Source of the DNA: Escherichia coli
GTDB taxonomy: Bacteria > Pseudomonadota > Gammaproteobacteria > Enterobacterales > Enterobacteriaceae
Direction: 5' to 3' (one strand)
Length of the DNA stretch: 64,000 bases
Assembly: GCF_003019035.1 (NCBI RefSeq)
Contig: NZ_CP027447.1
Shown here: piece after piece, positions 26,046-31,441 of the stretch
How positions within the stretch are numbered: the stretch's first letter is position 1
How the letters are laid out: each line of letters opens with the position of its first letter
The notes under the pieces: model-generated
What the model was told of the DNA's origin: nothing
Seen by the model: only the letters and a program-made list of their open reading frames with translations
Databases searched by the model: none
Translations under genes and position numbers: made by a program

Positions 26046-26064
26046 CAAAACCTCATTATCATCT

Positions 26065-26100
26065 GGCCCGGTAAGCGCCTTGCGCCCGGGCCATCTTTTT
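26065..26100 (+). terminator. rho-independent terminator after ilvC
   Basis: GGCCCGG...CCGGGCC inverted repeat followed by ATCTTTTTAT. Confidence 0.7.
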
Positions 26101-26129
26101 ATCTGCTTTTGACGGAGTTGCTGTTTTTT

Positions 26130-26789
26130 TTAGCCGAACTGTCCCCAATAAGCGCCTTTTTCCGGAAGAATATGTTCTTGCAGCGCCTGGAGCGCTTTTT
26201 CGGCATCCGCATCCTGGATAGCCTGAATAATCGCGACATGCTGTTGATGAGAACGATGCATATGTTCGTCATTACTGCCAAGATAATTGCGGATTGTCGC
26301 CATCTGCGCAGAAATAAGCACGTAGGATTGCTGTAAATAGGCATTGCCGCAATAGGTGAATAATGCCTCGTGGAACAGATTATCGAGGCGAATATATTCA
26401 TGTGTGGAATTATTTTCCAGACAAAACGTCATGTGATCGAGATAGGAGGATAATGCTTGTACCAGTTGGCGCTGATTGCGATGCAGGGACAGCCTCAGCG
26501 CTTTTGCCTCAACAAAATAACGAAACTCCAGCAGCCCGTTAAACTCAATATCGCTCAGGTTAAAAACAAAGGTTCCGCTTTTCGGGCGGATATGTACCAG
26601 CCCCTCGCTTTGTAGACGTCTCAAGGCGTCGCGTACCGGCGCTTTAGTGGAAGATAAACGAGTTGCCAGCGCTGATTCCGATATTTTACAGCCCATCGGT
26701 AATGTGCCGTTGATGATCATATCTCTGATACGACGATAAATAACGTCTTTGAGTAAGTCCGTTGTCATATTGATTGAAAATTCCGGCAT
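26130..26789 (-). CDS. GntR/FadR family transcriptional regulator (accessory cluster)
   Basis: 219 aa; N-terminal winged HTH (ESALATRLSSTKAPVRDALRRLQSEGLV) and helical FCD-like C-terminus; alternative start at 26768 possible. Confidence 0.8.
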   Translation of the reverse strand: MPEFSINMTTDLLKDVIYRRIRDMIINGTLPMGCKISESALATRLSSTKAPVRDALRRLQSEGLVHIRPKSGTFVFNLSDIEFNGLLEFRYFVEAKALRLSLHRNQRQLVQALSSYLDHMTFCLENNSTHEYIRLDNLFHEALFTYCGNAYLQQSYVLISAQMATIRNYLGSNDEHMHRSHQQHVAIIQAIQDADAEKALQALQEHILPEKGAYWGQFG

Positions 26790-26932
26790 GTTAACTCGGT
26801 AAGCAGCCGTTTGCGGCCAGCAATAGAGGTGACTGTATAACAGATTTGCGGGAATGGGAAAATGATATATGGCAACAAGTTGACACTGGTGTACTGAGCG
26901 AAATTATGCCGCGCTGGCAGGCGCGGCACAGA

Positions 26933-27871
26933 TTACTGTAATTGAGTTTGCTGGATCAAGATTTCAACTTGTGACTGGCGAGGAATGGGGGCAACTGCGC
27001 CATAACCGGTTGTTGTCAGCGCAGCGGCGGCGTTGGCGTAGCACAGCGCCTCTTCCGGCGAATCACCTTTGATAATGCGGTAAAGAAAAGCACCCGAGAA
27101 GCAGTCCCCAGCCCCGGTCGCGTCGACGGTGGCGACTTTATGGCCAGAGTAGATGATTCGCCTGTTCTCATTGGCGAACATCGCGCCTTCCGCACCCATT
27201 TTTAACACCACATTCTTTGCCCCGAGCTGGAGATAGAAATCCGTAATTTCATCTGCATGATGCTTCCCGGTTAGCAAACGGGCCTCATCGAGGCTAGGCA
27301 TGCAGTAATCTACGTGGCGTATTGTTTCATGGATGATGGCGCGGGCGCGGGCTAACGGCCACAGTTTGAGCCGCAGATTGGTGTCGAAGGAAATCAGCGT
27401 TTGGTGCTTTTGGCACAGTTCAATAGCGTGAAAAAGCGCATCACTGACGTTATTGCCAATGGCGTGCGTGATGGCCGAACTGTGAAATAAGCGCGCGGCG
27501 GCAATCGCGGACTCATTGATATCATCGACCGTCATCGTAGAGGCCGCAGAGCCTTTACGATAAAAGGTAAAGTGGTGGCCTTGTTCATTGTGAGAAATAA
27601 AATAGATCCCCGTCGGGGCCATTTTATGCGTGCAAACCCATTGATGATCGACCTTTTCTTCATCCCATAATGCGCGGAATTTCTGCCCAAATATGTCGTC
27701 GCCAAGTCGGGTTAACATAGCAACTTTAGCGCCTTGTCGCGCCGCGCTAATGGCGAAATTCGATGTATCACCGCCAAATCCGCTGAGATAATGCTGCTCA
27801 GAATGCTCTGTGGGAAGCTGATTGAATTCAAAAAGCGGCTCACCAAATGAAAGAATATCGAACTGCTTCAT
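26933..27871 (-). CDS. PfkB family carbohydrate kinase, 2-dehydro-3-deoxygluconokinase-like (accessory cluster)
   Basis: ORF 26933..27904; likely start MKQFDIL at 27871, preceded by GGAGAA; PfkB motifs GG (SGFGGD) and VDATGAGDCFSGAF. Confidence 0.8.
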   Translation of the reverse strand: MKQFDILSFGEPLFEFNQLPTEHSEQHYLSGFGGDTSNFAISAARQGAKVAMLTRLGDDIFGQKFRALWDEEKVDHQWVCTHKMAPTGIYFISHNEQGHHFTFYRKGSAASTMTVDDINESAIAAARLFHSSAITHAIGNNVSDALFHAIELCQKHQTLISFDTNLRLKLWPLARARAIIHETIRHVDYCMPSLDEARLLTGKHHADEITDFYLQLGAKNVVLKMGAEGAMFANENRRIIYSGHKVATVDATGAGDCFSGAFLYRIIKGDSPEEALCYANAAAALTTTGYGAVAPIPRQSQVEILIQQTQLQ

Positions 27872-29584: not shown

Positions 29585-29699
29585 AATATCTACCGTTCTT
29601 AATTATAAAATTAAGTGTTTTAATTTCTACGGCTGTAGTTCGCCGCATCCTGAAAACAGAATGTGAAATTAATGAATGTTTTGTTTGTGGTTTATATCA

Positions 29700-31037
29700 T
29701 CACAGAGTAACGGGTTTGGCGTCCACGATAGCTATATTCTTTAACCAGCGGACAATTAATATTGTGACGATCCCGCCGATTAGCATAACCGCGCTTAAAT
29801 ATAACATCGGTGCCGAGTCGCTTTTTTCTAAATCACGTACCAGAGGGATGGTGTTTTGCGCGAAAAACCCCCCCAGATTTGCCAGTGAATTAATAATAGC
29901 AATGCCTGCAGCCGCCGTTGCGCCTGAAAGAAATTTCGTTAAATTCCAGAAGCAGGGTTGAATTGCAAATACTGATAATACAACGCCGCAAATACAGATG
30001 AAGCTAATAACCGGCTGGGCGAATGTCCAGACCGAGAGCAGCAGACATATTGCAGCGGTGAACATAGGTAATGCGACATTAATATAAGGATTCTCGGTAC
30101 GTTCTGGCTTACTGGTTATCCAGCGCAGCATGATGATAACCATCGCCCATGGGATCATATTGACCAGACCATTCATCATATCCGAGGCACCGAACGTTTT
30201 AACAATAGTTGGCATCCAGTAGCTGATACCGTAGGCACCAAAGCAGATGAACCCGTATACCAGCGCGAGGGCCAGAACACGCCAGTCGGTCAGCGATTTA
30301 CCCAGGCTATTGACCGATTTATCGGTGTTGGCATCCTGTTCGGCGGCCAGTTTTTTAATCAACCAGCTCTTCTCTTCCGCATTCAAGAAGCGAGCCTGTT
30401 CCGGTCCTTGCGGAAACCATAGCAGCACTGGGGCAATCAGCAGAAGTGCAAGCACCCCCGTCGCCAGGAATAACCACTGCCATCCTTCCAGCCCCATAAA
30501 GCCGTGCATGCTAAGCAGTGAGCCGTTAATTGGGGCACCAATCATATTTGCCACCATGCTGGCGGTGACTAAAAAGCCGACAATACGTGGACGATACTTT
30601 AAAGGGAACCATTTGGTAGAATAGTAAATTAGCCCAGGGTAAAAGCTGGCTTCGGCAACACCAAGAATAAAACGCAAAGTATAAAATGTTGACATTTTTT
30701 CGGTCCACGCCAGCGCCATAGTAATAACTCCCCATGACAACAGGCTAATAGTGAACCAGCGTTTAGCACCTACCTTCGATAAAATTAAATTTCCGGGAAC
30801 GCTAAAAACCAAATAACCGATGAAAAAAAGTGATGCGCCGAGGCCAAAAGCTGCTTCACTCCAGCCCAGGCTGTCTACCATTTGTAATTTAGCAAAACTG
30901 ATATTCTGACGATCTATATACGCCACGATGTACATCAATACCATCAGTGGAACAAGTTTCCTGGTTGTTTTTGTTACAATGATTTTTTCTAAATCATTTT
31001 TTGCATCCAGGGACTGTTGCTGTATTGAATGACTCAT
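29700..31037 (-). CDS. MFS transporter, anion:cation symporter-like (accessory cluster)
   Basis: ORF 29700..31103; likely start MSHSIQQQ at 31037; about 12 predicted helices; motif YIDRQNISFAK typical of organic-acid and sugar-acid permeases. Confidence 0.8.
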   Translation of the reverse strand: MSHSIQQQSLDAKNDLEKIIVTKTTRKLVPLMVLMYIVAYIDRQNISFAKLQMVDSLGWSEAAFGLGASLFFIGYLVFSVPGNLILSKVGAKRWFTISLLSWGVITMALAWTEKMSTFYTLRFILGVAEASFYPGLIYYSTKWFPLKYRPRIVGFLVTASMVANMIGAPINGSLLSMHGFMGLEGWQWLFLATGVLALLLIAPVLLWFPQGPEQARFLNAEEKSWLIKKLAAEQDANTDKSVNSLGKSLTDWRVLALALVYGFICFGAYGISYWMPTIVKTFGASDMMNGLVNMIPWAMVIIMLRWITSKPERTENPYINVALPMFTAAICLLLSVWTFAQPVISFICICGVVLSVFAIQPCFWNLTKFLSGATAAAGIAIINSLANLGGFFAQNTIPLVRDLEKSDSAPMLYLSAVMLIGGIVTILIVRWLKNIAIVDAKPVTL

Positions 31038-31161
31038 AACACGTGTTTCCTGAATAAAGTCATAAGATCTGGCGCTCGTCCTCACACCATTGCACGGAGA
31101 CAAGATTTTGTCTGCATAGAGACGCCGTTGTTTTAGCCAGTTGAGATATTATTACCTAAAC

Positions 31162-31412
31162 TGACATGTCACAAAGATATCACTCATTTTTTATGTGGCG
31201 ACAGGATGTGTAAAAACTTGCCGCTTTGATCACAATTAATGGCGATAAAAGTGCTTTTTAGTGTGATGCTTGTCACTAAAAAATGGGATGAATAATCTTT
31301 TTTGACATGTCAGATTTGGGGTTTGTGAATGCAATAAATCACACTGTTGCAGTGGGTTGGCGCGTTAATCATGGAATAAAGGATATTTTTTTATAACTAA
31401 CATGTCAGATTG
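31162..31412. promoter_or_regulatory. leader of the accessory cluster with three copies of the palindromic motif ACATGTCA (two are the perfect 10-mer TGACATGTCA)
   Basis: TGACATGTCA at 31162-31171 and 31303-31312; TAACATGTCAGATT at 31399-31412; all upstream of the MFS start at 31037. Confidence 0.5.
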
Positions 31413-31441
31413 TGGCCCTTGTCAGGAAAGGGCCAGCCTGA

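What the first reader, a model, noticed from the sequence alone, without database searches (positions are those of the whole stretch)
26046..31441. Five-gene accessory catabolic cluster between ilvC and ppiC
Between the ilvC terminator and ppiC lie five co-directional minus-strand genes with short gaps: MFS anion-symporter-like transporter, D-2-hydroxyacid dehydrogenase, RraA-family probable aldolase, PfkB (KdgK-like) kinase and a GntR/FadR regulator, preceded by a 400 bp AT-rich leader. From memory, the K-12 gene order has ilvC and ppiC nearly adjacent, so this block looks like strain-variable accessory content. The gene set suggests uptake of an acidic sugar or hydroxy-acid, redox conversion, phosphorylation of a 2-keto-3-deoxy intermediate and aldol cleavage to pyruvate, but with an RraA-type aldolase in place of the usual Eda/DgoA type. 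The substrate cannot be inferred from sequence. No integrase, transposase or flanking direct repeat is visible, so it does not look like a recent mobile insertion.
Basis: partly seen in the sequence, partly recalled or inferred. Interest (0 to 1): 0.65.

Follow-up and report, generated by a model that had tools for sequence, protein, structure and literature searches.

The report
Rare accessory sugar-acid catabolic operon
A five-gene operon found in about 0.6% of E. coli genomes, passed between strains and to Klebsiella, most likely lets its carriers import and break down an unidentified sugar acid using an enzyme pair whose chemistry has never been studied.

Summary
Five co-directional minus-strand genes replace the whole ilvC-ppiC spacer: ACS-type MFS transporter, D-2-hydroxyacid dehydrogenase, long-form RraA-family enzyme, KDG-kinase-like PfkB kinase and GntR/FCD regulator. 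The block occurs in 31 of 5,426 complete E. coli genomes.

It carries no mobility genes but is clearly exchanged horizontally. It differs by 0.02-0.7% among carriers whose adjacent core genes differ by 1-9%. Klebsiella spallanzanii has it in the same slot, with synonymous divergence 3-8 times lower than in the flanks. All five genes are under strong purifying selection.

The dehydrogenase-RraA-kinase core recurs in at least 54 well-flanked species-level loci, with interchangeable transporters. An Eda-type aldolase accompanies it in 17 of 54.

Best reading: dehydrogenase and RraA convert an imported 2-hydroxy acid into a KDG-like keto-deoxy acid. The kinase and the host's Eda then finish the pathway.

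The leader carries three conserved TGACATGTCA palindromes (candidate operators) and a CRP-like site. The substrate is unknown and no publication was found.

The parts
26065..26092 (.). GC-rich hairpin between the convergent ilvC and gntR genes. It is followed by a T-run on the + strand and probably terminates ilvC and, in the other direction, the operon. It differs from the terminator found at empty sites.
   Evidence: Sequence. RNAfold gives -22.0 kcal/mol. The empty-site hairpin AAGGCCTTCTCC.GGAGAAGGCCTT is absent here.
26130..26768 (-). GntR-family regulator of the FadR/FCD type, 212 aa. Predicted repressor of the operon.
   Evidence: Pfam GntR 2.2e-17 and FCD 6.1e-24. RefSeq WP_000205685.1. 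No NCBIfam equivalog reaches its cut-off. The protein is 100% identical to the K. spallanzanii orthologue.
26907..26928 (-). Stem-loop directly after the pfkB stop, in the 164-bp pfkB-gntR spacer. It may be a partial terminator or RNA-stability element, so gntR may also have its own promoter.
   Evidence: RNAfold gives -18.9 kcal/mol. Spacer sequence. The function is inferred only.
26933..27871 (-). PfkB-family sugar kinase, 312 aa, resembling 2-keto-3-deoxygluconate (KDG) kinases.
   Evidence: Pfam PfkB 2.7e-55. The best NCBIfam match is KDG/KDGal kinase at 204 bits, below the 400-bit cut-off. The nearest solved structures are KDG kinases 1wye, 2v78/2var and 1v19, and the segments YRKGSAAS, DTNLRLKLW and GAGD are conserved.
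27937..28593 (-). Long-form RraA-family protein, 218 aa, in the HMG/CHA-aldolase superfamily. Predicted metal-dependent enzyme acting on a 2-oxo acid.
   Evidence: PF03737 on the 99%-identical homologue. The AlphaFold2 model has pLDDT 87. Foldseek gives TM about 0.8 to 5ir2, 3k4i, Yer010c (2c5q) and HMG/CHA aldolase 3noj. Arg123/Asp124 of 3NOJ align with the invariant GGVRD segment. All NCBIfam equivalogs fall far below cut-off.
28625..29584 (-). D-isomer-specific 2-hydroxyacid dehydrogenase, 319 aa, which RefSeq names 'C-terminal binding protein'.
   Evidence: Pfam 2-Hacid_dh_C 1e-57 and 2-Hacid_dh 6.5e-30. The best NCBIfam match is PGDH at 272 bits, below the 454-bit cut-off. The GFGRIS NAD motif and the NTSRG, FESEP and DHTAW catalytic Arg/Glu/His segments are visible in the translation.
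29700..31037 (-). MFS transporter of the anion:cation symporter (ACS) type, similar to DgoT/GudP/GarP, 445 aa. The likely start is the ATG at 31037, preceded by AGGAAA.
   Evidence: Pfam MFS_1 8.8e-46. TIGR00893 '2A0114 D-galactonate transporter subfamily' scores 247.6 bits, below the 395-bit cut-off. The RBS and ATG are conserved in all carriers and in Klebsiella. RefSeq start calls vary between genomes.
31038..31441 (-). AT-rich leader and promoter region of the operon, 404 bp, 39.4% GC.
31158..31175 (.). Candidate operator O1, tTGTGACATGTCAgt, a palindrome just downstream of the promoter-like hexamers.
   Evidence: Exact TGACATGTCA. Invariant in all carriers and in Klebsiella. The same motif occurs in the promoter regions of orthologous gammaproteobacterial clusters.
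31186..31214 (-). Sigma-70 promoter-like site, TTTACA-17-AAAAAT.
   Evidence: Consensus scan, 9 of 12 matches. The number of such sites in the region is not above chance, so this is a candidate only.
31262..31277 (.). CRP-like site, AGTGA-N6-TCACA, about 90 bp upstream of the putative transcription start.
   Evidence: One mismatch to TGTGA-N6-TCACA; there are only 4 such sites in 64 kb against 1.8 expected. The half-sites are conserved while the spacer varies among E. coli carriers and Klebsiella. This is a candidate only.
31300..31316 (.). Candidate operator O2, aaTCTGACATGTCAaaa.
31395..31411 (.). Candidate operator O3, aaTCTGACATGTTAgtt, with one mismatch to the palindrome.
31413..31435 (-). 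Hairpin after the ppiC stop codon, the probable ppiC terminator that insulates the operon from ppiC read-through. It differs from the empty-site terminator.
   Evidence: Sequence. RNAfold gives -16.4 kcal/mol. Conserved in Klebsiella.

Best explanation
This is an accessory, horizontally exchanged, substrate-inducible operon for uptake and catabolism of an unidentified hydroxy-carboxylic (sugar) acid.

Proposed steps:
1. The ACS-type MFS symporter imports the anion.
2. The D-2-hydroxyacid dehydrogenase oxidises its C2 hydroxyl to a 2-oxo (ulosonic) acid.
3. The long-form RraA-family enzyme uses the conserved Arg-Asp pair of HMG/CHA aldolase for metal-assisted enolate chemistry at C3 of that acid. 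The reaction could be C-C cleavage, decarboxylation, dehydration or isomerisation. The product would be KDG or a close 2-keto-3-deoxy analogue.
4. The KDG-kinase-like PfkB enzyme phosphorylates that product.
5. An Eda-type aldolase cleaves it to pyruvate plus a triose phosphate. Many other taxa encode this aldolase inside the cluster. In E. coli the core eda gene would supply it.

Regulation. The GntR/FCD protein represses the operon by binding the three TGACATGTCA palindromes in the leader until a pathway metabolite releases it. A CRP-like site suggests catabolite control.

Shown versus inferred. The gene families, the conserved linkage, the catalytic-residue conservation, the operator-like motif, the horizontal spread and the purifying selection are shown. 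The order of steps, the RraA reaction, the use of host Eda and the repressor role are inferred.
For: Families and residues:
- All five family assignments are confirmed.
- The RraA protein has the long-form fold, with TM about 0.8 to HMG/CHA aldolase and to Yer010c.
- Arg123/Asp124 of 3NOJ align with a GGVRD segment that is invariant across 14 orthologues.
- The kinase aligns best with structurally characterised KDG kinases and keeps their hallmark segments.

Conserved gene linkage, from 54 well-flanked species-level loci:
- PfkB in 53 and 2-HADH in 52.
- GntR/FCD in 49.
- An organic-anion transporter of changing type: TRAP in 45 and MFS in 7, with an SsuA-type ABC transporter in the two variant loci examined.
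- An Eda-type aldolase in 17; the two tested representatives (a Ruegeria and a Vibrio locus) pass the curated Eda cut-off.
- A KduD-like SDR in 37 and a small cupin in 36.
- A periplasmic MRJP beta-propeller in 34.

Evidence that the pathway ends in kinase plus Eda:
- In Vibrio the kinase and Eda genes overlap by 1 nt.
- Succinivibrionaceae clusters have only TRAP, 2-HADH, RraA and GntR.
- One Succinivibrio locus adds a different-lineage KDG-kinase-like PfkB, an Eda and a YhcH/YiaL-type ulosonic-acid anomerase.
- This indicates that the dehydrogenase-RraA pair feeds a generic KDG-kinase/Eda end-pathway through a ring-forming 2-keto acid.
- Variants lacking 2-HADH carry other enzymes of 2-oxo or 2-hydroxy sugar-acid chemistry: an AraD1/GguC FAH-family protein and a GMC oxidoreductase.

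Regulation:
- The only three matches to TGACATGTCA (one mismatch allowed) in the 64-kb window all lie within the leader.
- They are invariant in every carrier and in Klebsiella while neighbouring bases vary.
- The motif recurs in the promoter regions of Klebsiella, Pantoea, Vibrio, Photobacterium, Pseudovibrio and Succinatimonas clusters.

The genes are functional: dN/dS is 0-0.06 for all five.
Against: - No substrate is identified, and I could not name a natural compound that oxidation plus a known RraA-type reaction would turn into KDG.
- The kinase, dehydrogenase and transporter all score below every curated equivalog cut-off, so 'KDG-like' is a resemblance, not an assignment.
- Eda is absent from 37 of 54 clusters and from the E. 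coli block, so its participation there rests on the assumption that the core eda gene is used.
- The order of the dehydrogenase, RraA and kinase steps is not fixed by any data here. The dehydrogenase's nearest relatives (SerA/PGDH) act on phosphorylated acids, which would fit a kinase-first order.
- Asp102 of 3NOJ is replaced by Gly.
- The promoter and CRP sites are consensus matches only.
Confidence: 0.5

Rival explanations
1. The acid is converted to a 2-keto-3-deoxy intermediate and phosphorylated by the PfkB kinase. The RraA-family protein is then the terminal aldolase, releasing pyruvate in place of Eda/DgoA.
For: - RraA-family members with the Arg-Asp pair include a proven class II pyruvate aldolase, 3NOJ.
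- The E. coli block has no Eda gene.
- The kinase is KDG-kinase-like.
Against: - An Eda-type aldolase co-occurs with RraA in 17 of 54 loci. It sits either between 2-HADH and RraA or coupled to the kinase.
- Succinivibrionaceae clusters retain RraA without the cluster kinase, or with a separate kinase-Eda pair.
- The cluster has no dehydratase to create the 3-deoxy group.
- Known RraA-type aldolase substrates are non-phosphorylated diacids (PMC8563752 and the family names).
Confidence: 0.15
2. A route like the Pseudomonas kguTKD 2-ketogluconate system. The MFS imports a 2-keto-aldonate. The PfkB kinase phosphorylates it, as KguK does. The 2-hydroxyacid dehydrogenase then reduces the 2-keto group, as KguD does, giving a 6-phospho-aldonate that enters Entner-Doudoroff or pentose-phosphate metabolism. 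RraA would have an accessory role comparable to the unexplained KguE.
For: - The combination of MFS, PfkB and D-2-HADH matches the kgu gene set. That match is from my own knowledge of the kgu operon and was not tested here.
- The dehydrogenase family includes 2-ketoaldonate reductases, namely GhrB at 199 bits and PDB 9m0t.
- Eda in some clusters would fit an Entner-Doudoroff end.
- One variant locus has a GMC oxidoreductase with a small subunit, resembling gluconate 2-dehydrogenase.
Against: - RraA is the most conserved member and is present in every locus, because it was the query. It is 59-100% identical, against 43-68% for the dehydrogenase and kinase. That is hard to reconcile with an accessory role.
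- Succinivibrionaceae clusters lack the kinase but keep the dehydrogenase and RraA.
- No Edd-type dehydratase is linked to the cluster.
Confidence: 0.15
3. An analogue of the E. coli garPLRK galactarate/glucarate end-pathway. An imported 2-keto-3-deoxy-aldarate, or another 4-hydroxy-2-oxo diacid, is cleaved by RraA (like GarL) to pyruvate plus tartronate semialdehyde. That product is reduced by the dehydrogenase (like GarR or hydroxypyruvate reductase) to glycerate, which the kinase (like GarK) phosphorylates.
For: - Transporter-reductase-aldolase-kinase is the same functional set as garPLRK. GarP and GudP belong to the same ACS transporter family (TIGR00893 match; the gar operon is from my own knowledge).
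- Characterised RraA-family enzymes act on 4-hydroxy-2-oxo diacids. These are HMG/CHA aldolase and FlDet, which acts on 2-keto-3-deoxyglucarate (PMC8563752).
- DctP-type TRAP systems typically carry acids and diacids.
Against: - The kinase resembles KDG kinases, not any known glycerate kinase class.
- The Eda co-occurrence and the kinase-Eda coupling are not explained.
- No aldarate dehydratase is linked to the cluster.
Confidence: 0.1
4. The RraA-family protein is not an enzyme here but a regulator, as E. coli RraA is for RNase E. Alternatively, the block is a decaying cryptic remnant.
For: - The family name and the weak match to the RraA equivalog, 50 bits against a 136-bit cut-off.
- The block is rare in E. 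coli.
Against: - It has the long-form enzyme-like architecture and a conserved catalytic Arg-Asp pair.
- It is linked in an operon to metabolic genes in more than 50 species.
- dN/dS is 0-0.06 for all five genes, and all nine inspected genomes carry intact annotated CDSs.
Confidence: 0.04

Closest known systems
KDG end-pathway (KdgT/KdgK/Eda, fed by KduI/KduD) of Enterobacterales
   Same: - An organic-acid transporter, a KDG-kinase-like PfkB kinase and a repressor-controlled catabolic operon.
- Extended versions in other taxa add an Eda-type aldolase, a KduD-like SDR and a cupin.
   Different: - The kinase is not a KdgK orthologue: 129 bits against the 400-bit cut-off for the KdgK model.
- The invariant feeding enzymes are a D-2-hydroxyacid dehydrogenase and an RraA-family protein. 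Neither has a counterpart in the Kdu/Uxa/Uxu routes.
- The cupin is Cupin_7, not the KduI/IolB family.
HMG/CHA aldolase (LigK/ProA/GalC; PDB 3NOJ) and RraA-like FlDet (2-keto-3-deoxyglucarate dehydratase/decarboxylase)
   Same: - The same long-form RraA fold.
- A conserved Arg-Asp catalytic pair.
- Predicted action on a 2-oxo acid (PMC8563752 for FlDet).
   Different: - Only 26% identity to 3NOJ, and 83 bits against a 304-bit cut-off for the LigK equivalog.
- The genomic context is sugar-acid metabolism, not aromatic meta-cleavage or alginate oxidation.
- Asp102 of 3NOJ is replaced by Gly.
- The reaction is unknown.
Pseudomonas kguE-kguK-kguT-kguD 2-ketogluconate operon
   Same: An MFS transporter, a PfkB kinase, a D-2-hydroxyacid dehydrogenase family enzyme and one enigmatic extra gene. 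This comparison is from my own knowledge of the kgu operon.
   Different: - The extra gene here is RraA-family, not a KguE-type TIM-barrel protein.
- The regulator is GntR/FCD, not the LacI-type PtxS.
- Orthology was not tested and nothing in the scores suggests it.
E. coli garPLRK / gudPXD aldarate operons
   Same: An ACS-family transporter, a class II pyruvate aldolase analogue, a reductase and a kinase in one operon.
   Different: - All three enzymes belong to different protein families.
- No dehydratase is linked.
- The kinase resembles KDG kinases, not glycerate kinases.
Strain-specific E. coli sugar-utilisation clusters exchanged by flank recombination (for example the D-tagatose cluster of phylogroup B2, PMC9720028)
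   Same: A small accessory catabolic operon with its own regulator and transporter, present in a subset of E. coli and lacking mobility genes.
   Different: - Much rarer, at 0.6% of complete genomes.
- Scattered over divergent backgrounds.
- The substrate is unknown.

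Membership tests
RraA / HMG-CHA aldolase superfamily (PF03737) | Pfam PF03737 match and the RraA-like fold | tested here: met
   PF03737 on the 99%-identical homologue P0001. The AF2 model has pLDDT 87. Foldseek gives TM 0.79-0.84 to 3k4i, 5ir2, 2c5q and 3noj.
RraA / HMG-CHA aldolase superfamily (PF03737) | Catalytic Arg and metal-binding Asp (Arg123/Asp124 of 3NOJ) | tested here: met
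   The 3NOJ 'GVRD' segment aligns with the family-invariant 'GGVRD'. The residue roles come from my own knowledge of the HMG/CHA aldolase literature.
HMG/CHA aldolase proper (LigK/PcmE equivalog) | Score above the curated equivalog cut-off | tested here: not met
   TIGR02798 scores 82.7 bits against 304.5; NF006731 scores 81.6 against 179.
RNase E regulator RraA proper | Score above the curated equivalog cut-off; short form of about 160 aa | tested here: not met
   NF006875 scores 50.2 bits against 136. The protein is 218 aa with a C-terminal helical extension. TM to the short RraAs, normalised to the query, is only 0.53-0.58.
RraA-family enzymes | Divalent-metal-dependent pyruvate-forming aldolase or oxaloacetate decarboxylase activity | not testable with these tools
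   Requires an enzyme assay.
KDG kinase (PfkB family) | PfkB domain with the GAGD catalytic motif | tested here: met
   PF00294 at 2.7e-55. 'DATGAGDCFSGAF' aligns with the KDG-kinase GAGD motif.
KDG kinase (PfkB family) | Substrate-binding segments of structurally characterised KDG kinases (Tyr/Arg of YYRKGSAGS and Arg of DTNIR) | tested here: inconclusive
   FYRKGSAAS and DTNLR are conserved against 1wye and 2v78. A 'fructokinase' structure, 3hj6, keeps both arginines too. The residue roles are from memory.
KDG kinase (PfkB family) | Score above the curated equivalog cut-off (orthology to KdgK or KDG/KDGal kinase) | tested here: not met
   NF040938 scores 204 bits against 400; NF052444 (KdgK) scores 129 against 400.
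D-isomer-specific 2-hydroxyacid dehydrogenases | Both Pfam domains, the GxGxxG NAD motif and the Arg/Glu/His catalytic segments | tested here: met
   PF02826 at 1e-57 and PF00389 at 6.5e-30. GFGRIS, NTSRG, FESEP and DHTAW are read directly from the translation.
D-isomer-specific 2-hydroxyacid dehydrogenases | Membership of a characterised specificity group (SerA, GhrA/B, PdxB, LdhA and others) | tested here: not met
   All 23 NCBIfam matches fall below their cut-offs. The best is PGDH at 272 bits against 454.
ACS (anion:cation symporter) family of MFS | MFS_1 domain and a match to the 2A0114 subfamily model | tested here: inconclusive
   PF07690 at 8.8e-46. TIGR00893 is the best match over its full length but scores 247.6 bits against 395.
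GntR/FadR (FCD) regulators | N-terminal GntR winged helix plus C-terminal FCD domain | tested here: met
   PF00392 at 2.2e-17 and PF07729 at 6.1e-24.
GntR/FadR (FCD) regulators | Binding to a palindromic operator in its own operon's promoter | tested here: inconclusive
   Three conserved TGACATGTCA sites occur only in the leader, and the motif is shared by orthologous gammaproteobacterial clusters. Binding itself is not testable here.
Integrative genomic island / mobile element | Integrase or transposase gene, tRNA target, flanking direct repeats | tested here: not met
   No such ORF, no tRNA and no flanking direct repeat. There is no copy on E. coli plasmids. The only plasmid-borne relatives are about 70% identical, in Pantoea.
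Entner-Doudoroff-type cleavage module (kinase + Eda) | An Eda-family aldolase encoded with the kinase | tested here: not met
   Absent from the E. coli block but present in 17 of 54 orthologous loci. Use of the core eda gene in E. coli is an inference.

The most novel reading that the evidence does not exclude
The 2-hydroxyacid dehydrogenase and RraA-family pair, with the frequently linked periplasmic MRJP/yellow beta-propeller, defines an undescribed catabolic pathway. It would serve a widespread natural acid, possibly released from a lactone or ester. The RraA-family enzyme would catalyse a reaction not yet known for this fold and feed a KDG-kinase/Eda end-pathway. E. coli strains carrying the block would gain a niche-specific nutrient.
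Probability: 0.45. Interest if true: 0.7.

Novelty: new variant of a known kind. Interest (0 to 1): 0.5.

Why it matters
If the reading is right, this small operon marks a conserved but uncharacterised route of sugar-acid catabolism found in gut, plant-associated, soil and marine Proteobacteria, in at least 180 species-level genomes.

Identifying its substrate would do four things:
- Assign functions to a large RraA subfamily.
- Assign functions to a 'CtBP-like' dehydrogenase subfamily.
- Assign functions to bacterial MRJP/yellow proteins and a Cupin_7 group that are currently named only by family.
- Possibly fill an orphan reaction.

For E. coli biology, the block is a clean example of a rare metabolic trait that moves between divergent lineages, and between genera, without mobility genes. 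Its breakpoints lie exactly at the edges of the heterologous DNA. The five-gene size, the dedicated regulator and the clear operator candidates make the question directly testable with a reporter screen.

Tried and rejected
- Literature. All ten full-text searches found no paper on this gene set. They used RraA with kinase, dehydrogenase, TRAP, KduD, cupin and lactonase terms, PF03737, the RefSeq product names, the WP accessions and ilvC/ppiC island terms. The only useful item was FlDet, an RraA-like dehydratase/decarboxylase (PMC8563752). The 2026 L-threonate 3-dehydrogenase paper (PMC12994016) concerns a different cluster.
- TRAP ligand survey. The Vetting et al. 2015 survey is not held. What I recall of its ligand assignments was therefore not used as evidence.
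- Substrate size from the TRAP binding protein. The model was good, at pLDDT 91. Its nearest solved structures are only 28-35% identical, and the entry titles are cut off before the ligand names. This gave no conclusion.
- Mobile-element signatures. There are no flanking direct repeats, tRNAs, integrase genes or IS elements.
- RNA elements. There is no riboswitch or known RNA element in the leader.
- Plasmid origin. There is no E. coli plasmid copy, only relatives about 70% identical on Pantoea plasmids.
- Specific substrates. I considered tartrate, D-malate, pantoate/pantolactone, KDO, 2,3-diketogulonate, sulfolactate, 3-deoxy-aldonates, aldarates and tetronates. Each fits some genes but fails on others. 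The usual failures are the near-universal KDG-kinase-like gene, the Eda co-occurrence, or leaving no role for RraA. None is put forward as the substrate.
- Promoter and terminator scan. The number of sites is no higher than in shuffled sequence, so those sites are listed only as candidates.

Full report
OBSERVATION

The window carries five co-directional minus-strand ORFs between ilvC, which ends at 26045, and ppiC, whose stop codon occupies 31442-31444. RefSeq annotates the same five genes in a 100%-identical genome, E. coli SCU-301. It names them GntR family regulator, sugar kinase, RraA family protein, 'C-terminal binding protein' and MFS transporter.

With the most likely start codons the coordinates are:
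- gntR 26130-26768
- pfkB 26933-27871
- rraA 27937-28593
- 2-hydroxyacid dehydrogenase (HADH) 28625-29584
- mfs 29700-31037

The leader is 404 bp long with 39.4% GC.

Pfam confirms GntR+FCD, PfkB, 2-Hacid_dh+2-Hacid_dh_C and MFS_1. The RraA homologue that is 99% identical carries PF03737. No NCBIfam equivalog cut-off is reached by any of the five proteins. The families are therefore certain and the specificities are open.

Region 25800-31900 contains no Rfam family, region 25000-32500 no tRNA, and the block has no flanking direct repeat.

PRESENCE, ABSENCE AND JUNCTIONS

A megablast of the block finds it in 31 of 5,426 complete E. coli genomes. It is always chromosomal, always a single copy and always at least 99.5% identical. 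Essentially all genomes have the flanks.

K-12 has ilvC and ppiC 86 bp apart, and the compact type has them 45 bp apart.

Homology to empty sites ends exactly at the ilvC stop codon and resumes at the ppiC stop codon. The whole spacer, including its bidirectional terminator, is replaced. The block brings two different hairpins of its own, at 26065-26092 and 31413-31435.

The block has 48.2% GC against 51-54% in the flanks. Its GC3 is lower, and ATA, GGA and TTA codons are enriched 3-4.5-fold.

HORIZONTAL EXCHANGE WITHOUT MOBILITY GENES

I fetched eight carriers with 8-kb flanks and aligned them with the window. Pairwise differences per 100 bp are:
- block: 0.02-0.70
- ilvC: 1.4-4.7
- ilvY: 1.6-9.4
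- ppiC: 0.7-5.0
- rep: 1.2-4.5

These ranges compare different flank haplotypes. Carriers that share a flank haplotype are identical or nearly so in the flanks.

At least five flank haplotypes carry the same block. Variable columns fall from 5-10 per 100 bp in ilvC to 0-3 inside the block. They rise again in the distal leader and in ppiC.

Two explanations remain. The block may have been imported repeatedly into divergent backgrounds. Alternatively, recombination tracts from the non-carrier majority may overwrite the flanks and have to stop at the heterology. Either way, the block is not simply inherited with its neighbourhood.

Klebsiella spallanzanii has the same five genes in the same ppiC-ilvC slot. 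Synonymous divergence from E. coli is 0.13-0.28 in the block. In the flanks it is 0.58 (ilvC), 0.74 (ppiC), 0.98 (ilvY) and 1.49 (rep). That indicates transfer between the genera after they split.

dN/dS is 0-0.06 for all five genes, and all inspected copies are intact. The operon is therefore maintained by selection.

More distant copies, about 70% identical at the nucleotide level, lie on Pantoea plasmids.

WHAT THE COMPARATIVE CONTEXT SAYS ABOUT FUNCTION

The RraA protein is unusually conserved. It is 59-89% identical across Pantoea, Atlantibacter, Rouxiella, Vibrio, Photobacterium, Succinivibrionaceae, Rhizobiaceae, roseobacters, Burkholderiales and even Truepera.

A scan of one genome per species found 180 relatives, of which 80 loci were kept. 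Among the 54 loci with at least 7 kb on both sides, the linked genes are:
- KDG-kinase-like PfkB: 53, within 3 kb
- HADH: 52, within 3 kb
- GntR/FCD regulator: 49
- TRAP transporter: 45
- ACS-type MFS: 7, in Enterobacterales and Paraburkholderia
- periplasmic MRJP/yellow beta-propeller: 34
- SDR whose best match is KduD: 37
- small Cupin_7 protein: 36
- Eda-type aldolase: 17

The two Eda representatives I tested, from a Ruegeria and a Vibrio locus, pass the curated Eda threshold (cupin assignment).

The Eda gene occupies different positions in different lineages. In roseobacters it lies between HADH and RraA. In Vibrio it lies after the kinase and overlaps it by one base.

Succinivibrionaceae have only TRAP, HADH, RraA and GntR. 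One Succinivibrio locus completes the set differently. It adds a different-lineage KDG-kinase-like PfkB (32% identical), a true Eda and a YhcH/YiaL-type anomerase, a family that acts on ring-forming 2-keto sugar acids.

Two variants without HADH carry other enzymes in its place. One has an AraD1/GguC FAH-family protein and the other a GMC oxidoreductase pair. Both use an SsuA-type ABC transporter.

Together these data point to four things:
- The substrate is an organic anion.
- HADH and RraA form the specific core.
- The pathway passes through a 2-keto sugar acid.
- It ends with a KDG-type kinase and an Eda-type aldolase.

In E. coli the core eda gene presumably performs the final cleavage, which is an inference.

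ENZYME-LEVEL CHECKS

The RraA protein models confidently, at pLDDT 87. It superposes on the long-form enzymes of the family at TM about 0.8. These are 3k4i, 5ir2, yeast Yer010c and HMG/CHA aldolase 3NOJ. Against the short RNase E regulators the TM normalised to the query is only about 0.55.

Arg123 and Asp124 of 3NOJ align with a GGVRD segment that is invariant in 14 orthologues. Asp102 is replaced by Gly.

A published RraA-like enzyme, FlDet, dehydrates and decarboxylates 2-keto-3-deoxyglucarate (PMC8563752). The fold is therefore not limited to aldol cleavage.

The kinase aligns best with the KDG kinases of Sulfolobus and Thermus and retains YRKGSAAS, DTNLR and GAGD.

The dehydrogenase shows the NAD motif and the Arg/Glu/His segments of its family. 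It is closest to SerA/CtBP-type members.

REGULATION

The leader contains three copies of the palindrome TGACATGTCA, at 31158-31175, 31300-31316 and 31395-31411. These are the only matches with at most one mismatch in the whole 64-kb window. About 1.7 would be expected over 64 kb, which is about 0.01 for the leader.

They are invariant in all carriers and in Klebsiella while adjacent leader positions vary. The motif also recurs in the promoter regions of the Klebsiella, Pantoea, Vibrio, Photobacterium, Pseudovibrio and Succinatimonas clusters. It is absent from alpha- and betaproteobacterial clusters, whose regulators are only about 35% identical.

The proximal site lies just downstream of a promoter-like TTTACA-17-AAAAAT, the usual position for a repressor.

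A CRP-like site, AGTGA-N6-TCACA at 31262-31277, keeps its half-sites while its spacer varies.

I therefore read the GntR/FCD protein as a repressor acting at these palindromes and released by a pathway metabolite, with catabolite control on top. Binding and the identity of the effector are untested.

MOST LIKELY MECHANISM AND ITS LIMITS

The steps I think most likely are:
1. Import by the ACS-type symporter.
2. Oxidation of the C2 hydroxyl by HADH.
3. Metal-assisted enolate chemistry by the RraA-family enzyme, giving KDG or a close analogue.
4. Phosphorylation by the PfkB kinase.
5. Cleavage by host Eda.

I give this scheme a confidence of 0.5.

The weakest point is step 3. I could not name a natural compound that this sequence of reactions would turn into KDG. 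The order of the dehydrogenase, RraA and kinase steps is also not fixed.

The rivals and their confidences are:
- A kgu-like 2-ketoaldonate route, with the kinase acting first and HADH working as a reductase: 0.15.
- A garPLRK-like route from a keto-deoxy-aldarate: 0.10.
- A non-enzymatic or decaying element: 0.04.

COMPARISON WITH WHAT IS KNOWN, AND NOVELTY

The operon works like the many small repressor-controlled sugar-acid operons of Enterobacterales. In other taxa it shares the KDG-kinase/Eda end-pathway. None of its enzymes is an orthologue of a characterised one. The HADH-RraA core, the linked MRJP beta-propeller and the Cupin_7 protein have no described role. Ten full-text searches found nothing on this gene set.

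I rate it a new variant of a known kind. For E. coli it is a rare accessory trait of moderate interest. The wider interest is that a conserved, widespread pathway with unknown substrate and unknown RraA-family chemistry becomes directly testable with a five-gene operon, a dedicated regulator and clear operator candidates.

Noticed in passing
window 31724-31809 (ppiC-rep spacer); compare L002 2415-3277: K-12, and 21 of the 30 genomes sampled evenly across the ranking, carry a frameshifted PemK/MazF-type toxin pseudogene between ppiC and rep. I recall it is called yifN. The window and the compact-type strains lack it, with ppiC and rep 86 bp apart. This is a second presence/absence polymorphism right next to the block.
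   Followed up: partly
window 23530-24420 (ilvY) and 18046-26045 (ilv genes): Allelic divergence among E. coli carriers is unusually deep here: up to 9.4% in ilvY and 4-5% in ilvC and ilvGMEDA. This is well above the 1-2% I would expect within the species. It suggests imported or ancient alleles in this region.
   Followed up: no
L094 (E. coli GF131), locus 13397-15786: GF131 is identical to the window across the ilv genes, the block and nearly all of ppiC, but differs by 3% in rep. A recombination breakpoint therefore lies between ppiC and rep in one of the two lineages.
   Followed up: partly
L097 15842-17189 and L098 15860-17208: Two carriers, MS 16-3 and Z1323CEC0015, have an IS1397 (IS3-family) insertion between rep and gppA. 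It is in opposite orientations in the two strains and frameshifted in one.
   Followed up: no
L014 (DXKH01000095.1, 'Citrobacter sp.' MAG): This 6.7-kb contig is 98.9% identical to the E. coli window from ilvC to ppiC, block included. It is probably an Escherichia contig that was mis-binned or misclassified.
   Followed up: partly
PDB 5ir2, nearest solved relative of the RraA protein: An entry titled 'novel cellulases from microbes associated with the gut ecosystem' has an RraA fold and is the closest solved relative, at 31% identity and TM 0.80. A cellulase activity for this fold seems odd.
   Followed up: no
L008 11362-12552; L010 9730-10920; L004 11570-12805; L007 12133-13332: A signal-peptide-bearing MRJP/yellow-family beta-propeller, which RefSeq names 'L-dopachrome tautomerase-related', is linked to the cluster in 34 of 54 loci and is sometimes duplicated. 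It has no NCBIfam family, and its only close solved relative is uncharacterised (2qe8). Its weak similarity to SGL lactonases suggests a periplasmic lactone or ester hydrolase acting before uptake.
   Followed up: partly
window 31038-31103 (5' end of the MFS gene): RefSeq start codons for the same MFS gene differ between genomes, giving CDS lengths of 1338, 1386 and 1404 nt. The ATG at 31037, with an AGGAAA ribosome-binding site, is conserved in all carriers and in Klebsiella.
   Followed up: partly
window 27899-27925 and 26907-26928: GC-rich stem-loops lie in the rraA-pfkB and pfkB-gntR spacers. They may act as RNA-stability elements or as partial terminators that set the relative expression of the distal genes.
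   Followed up: no
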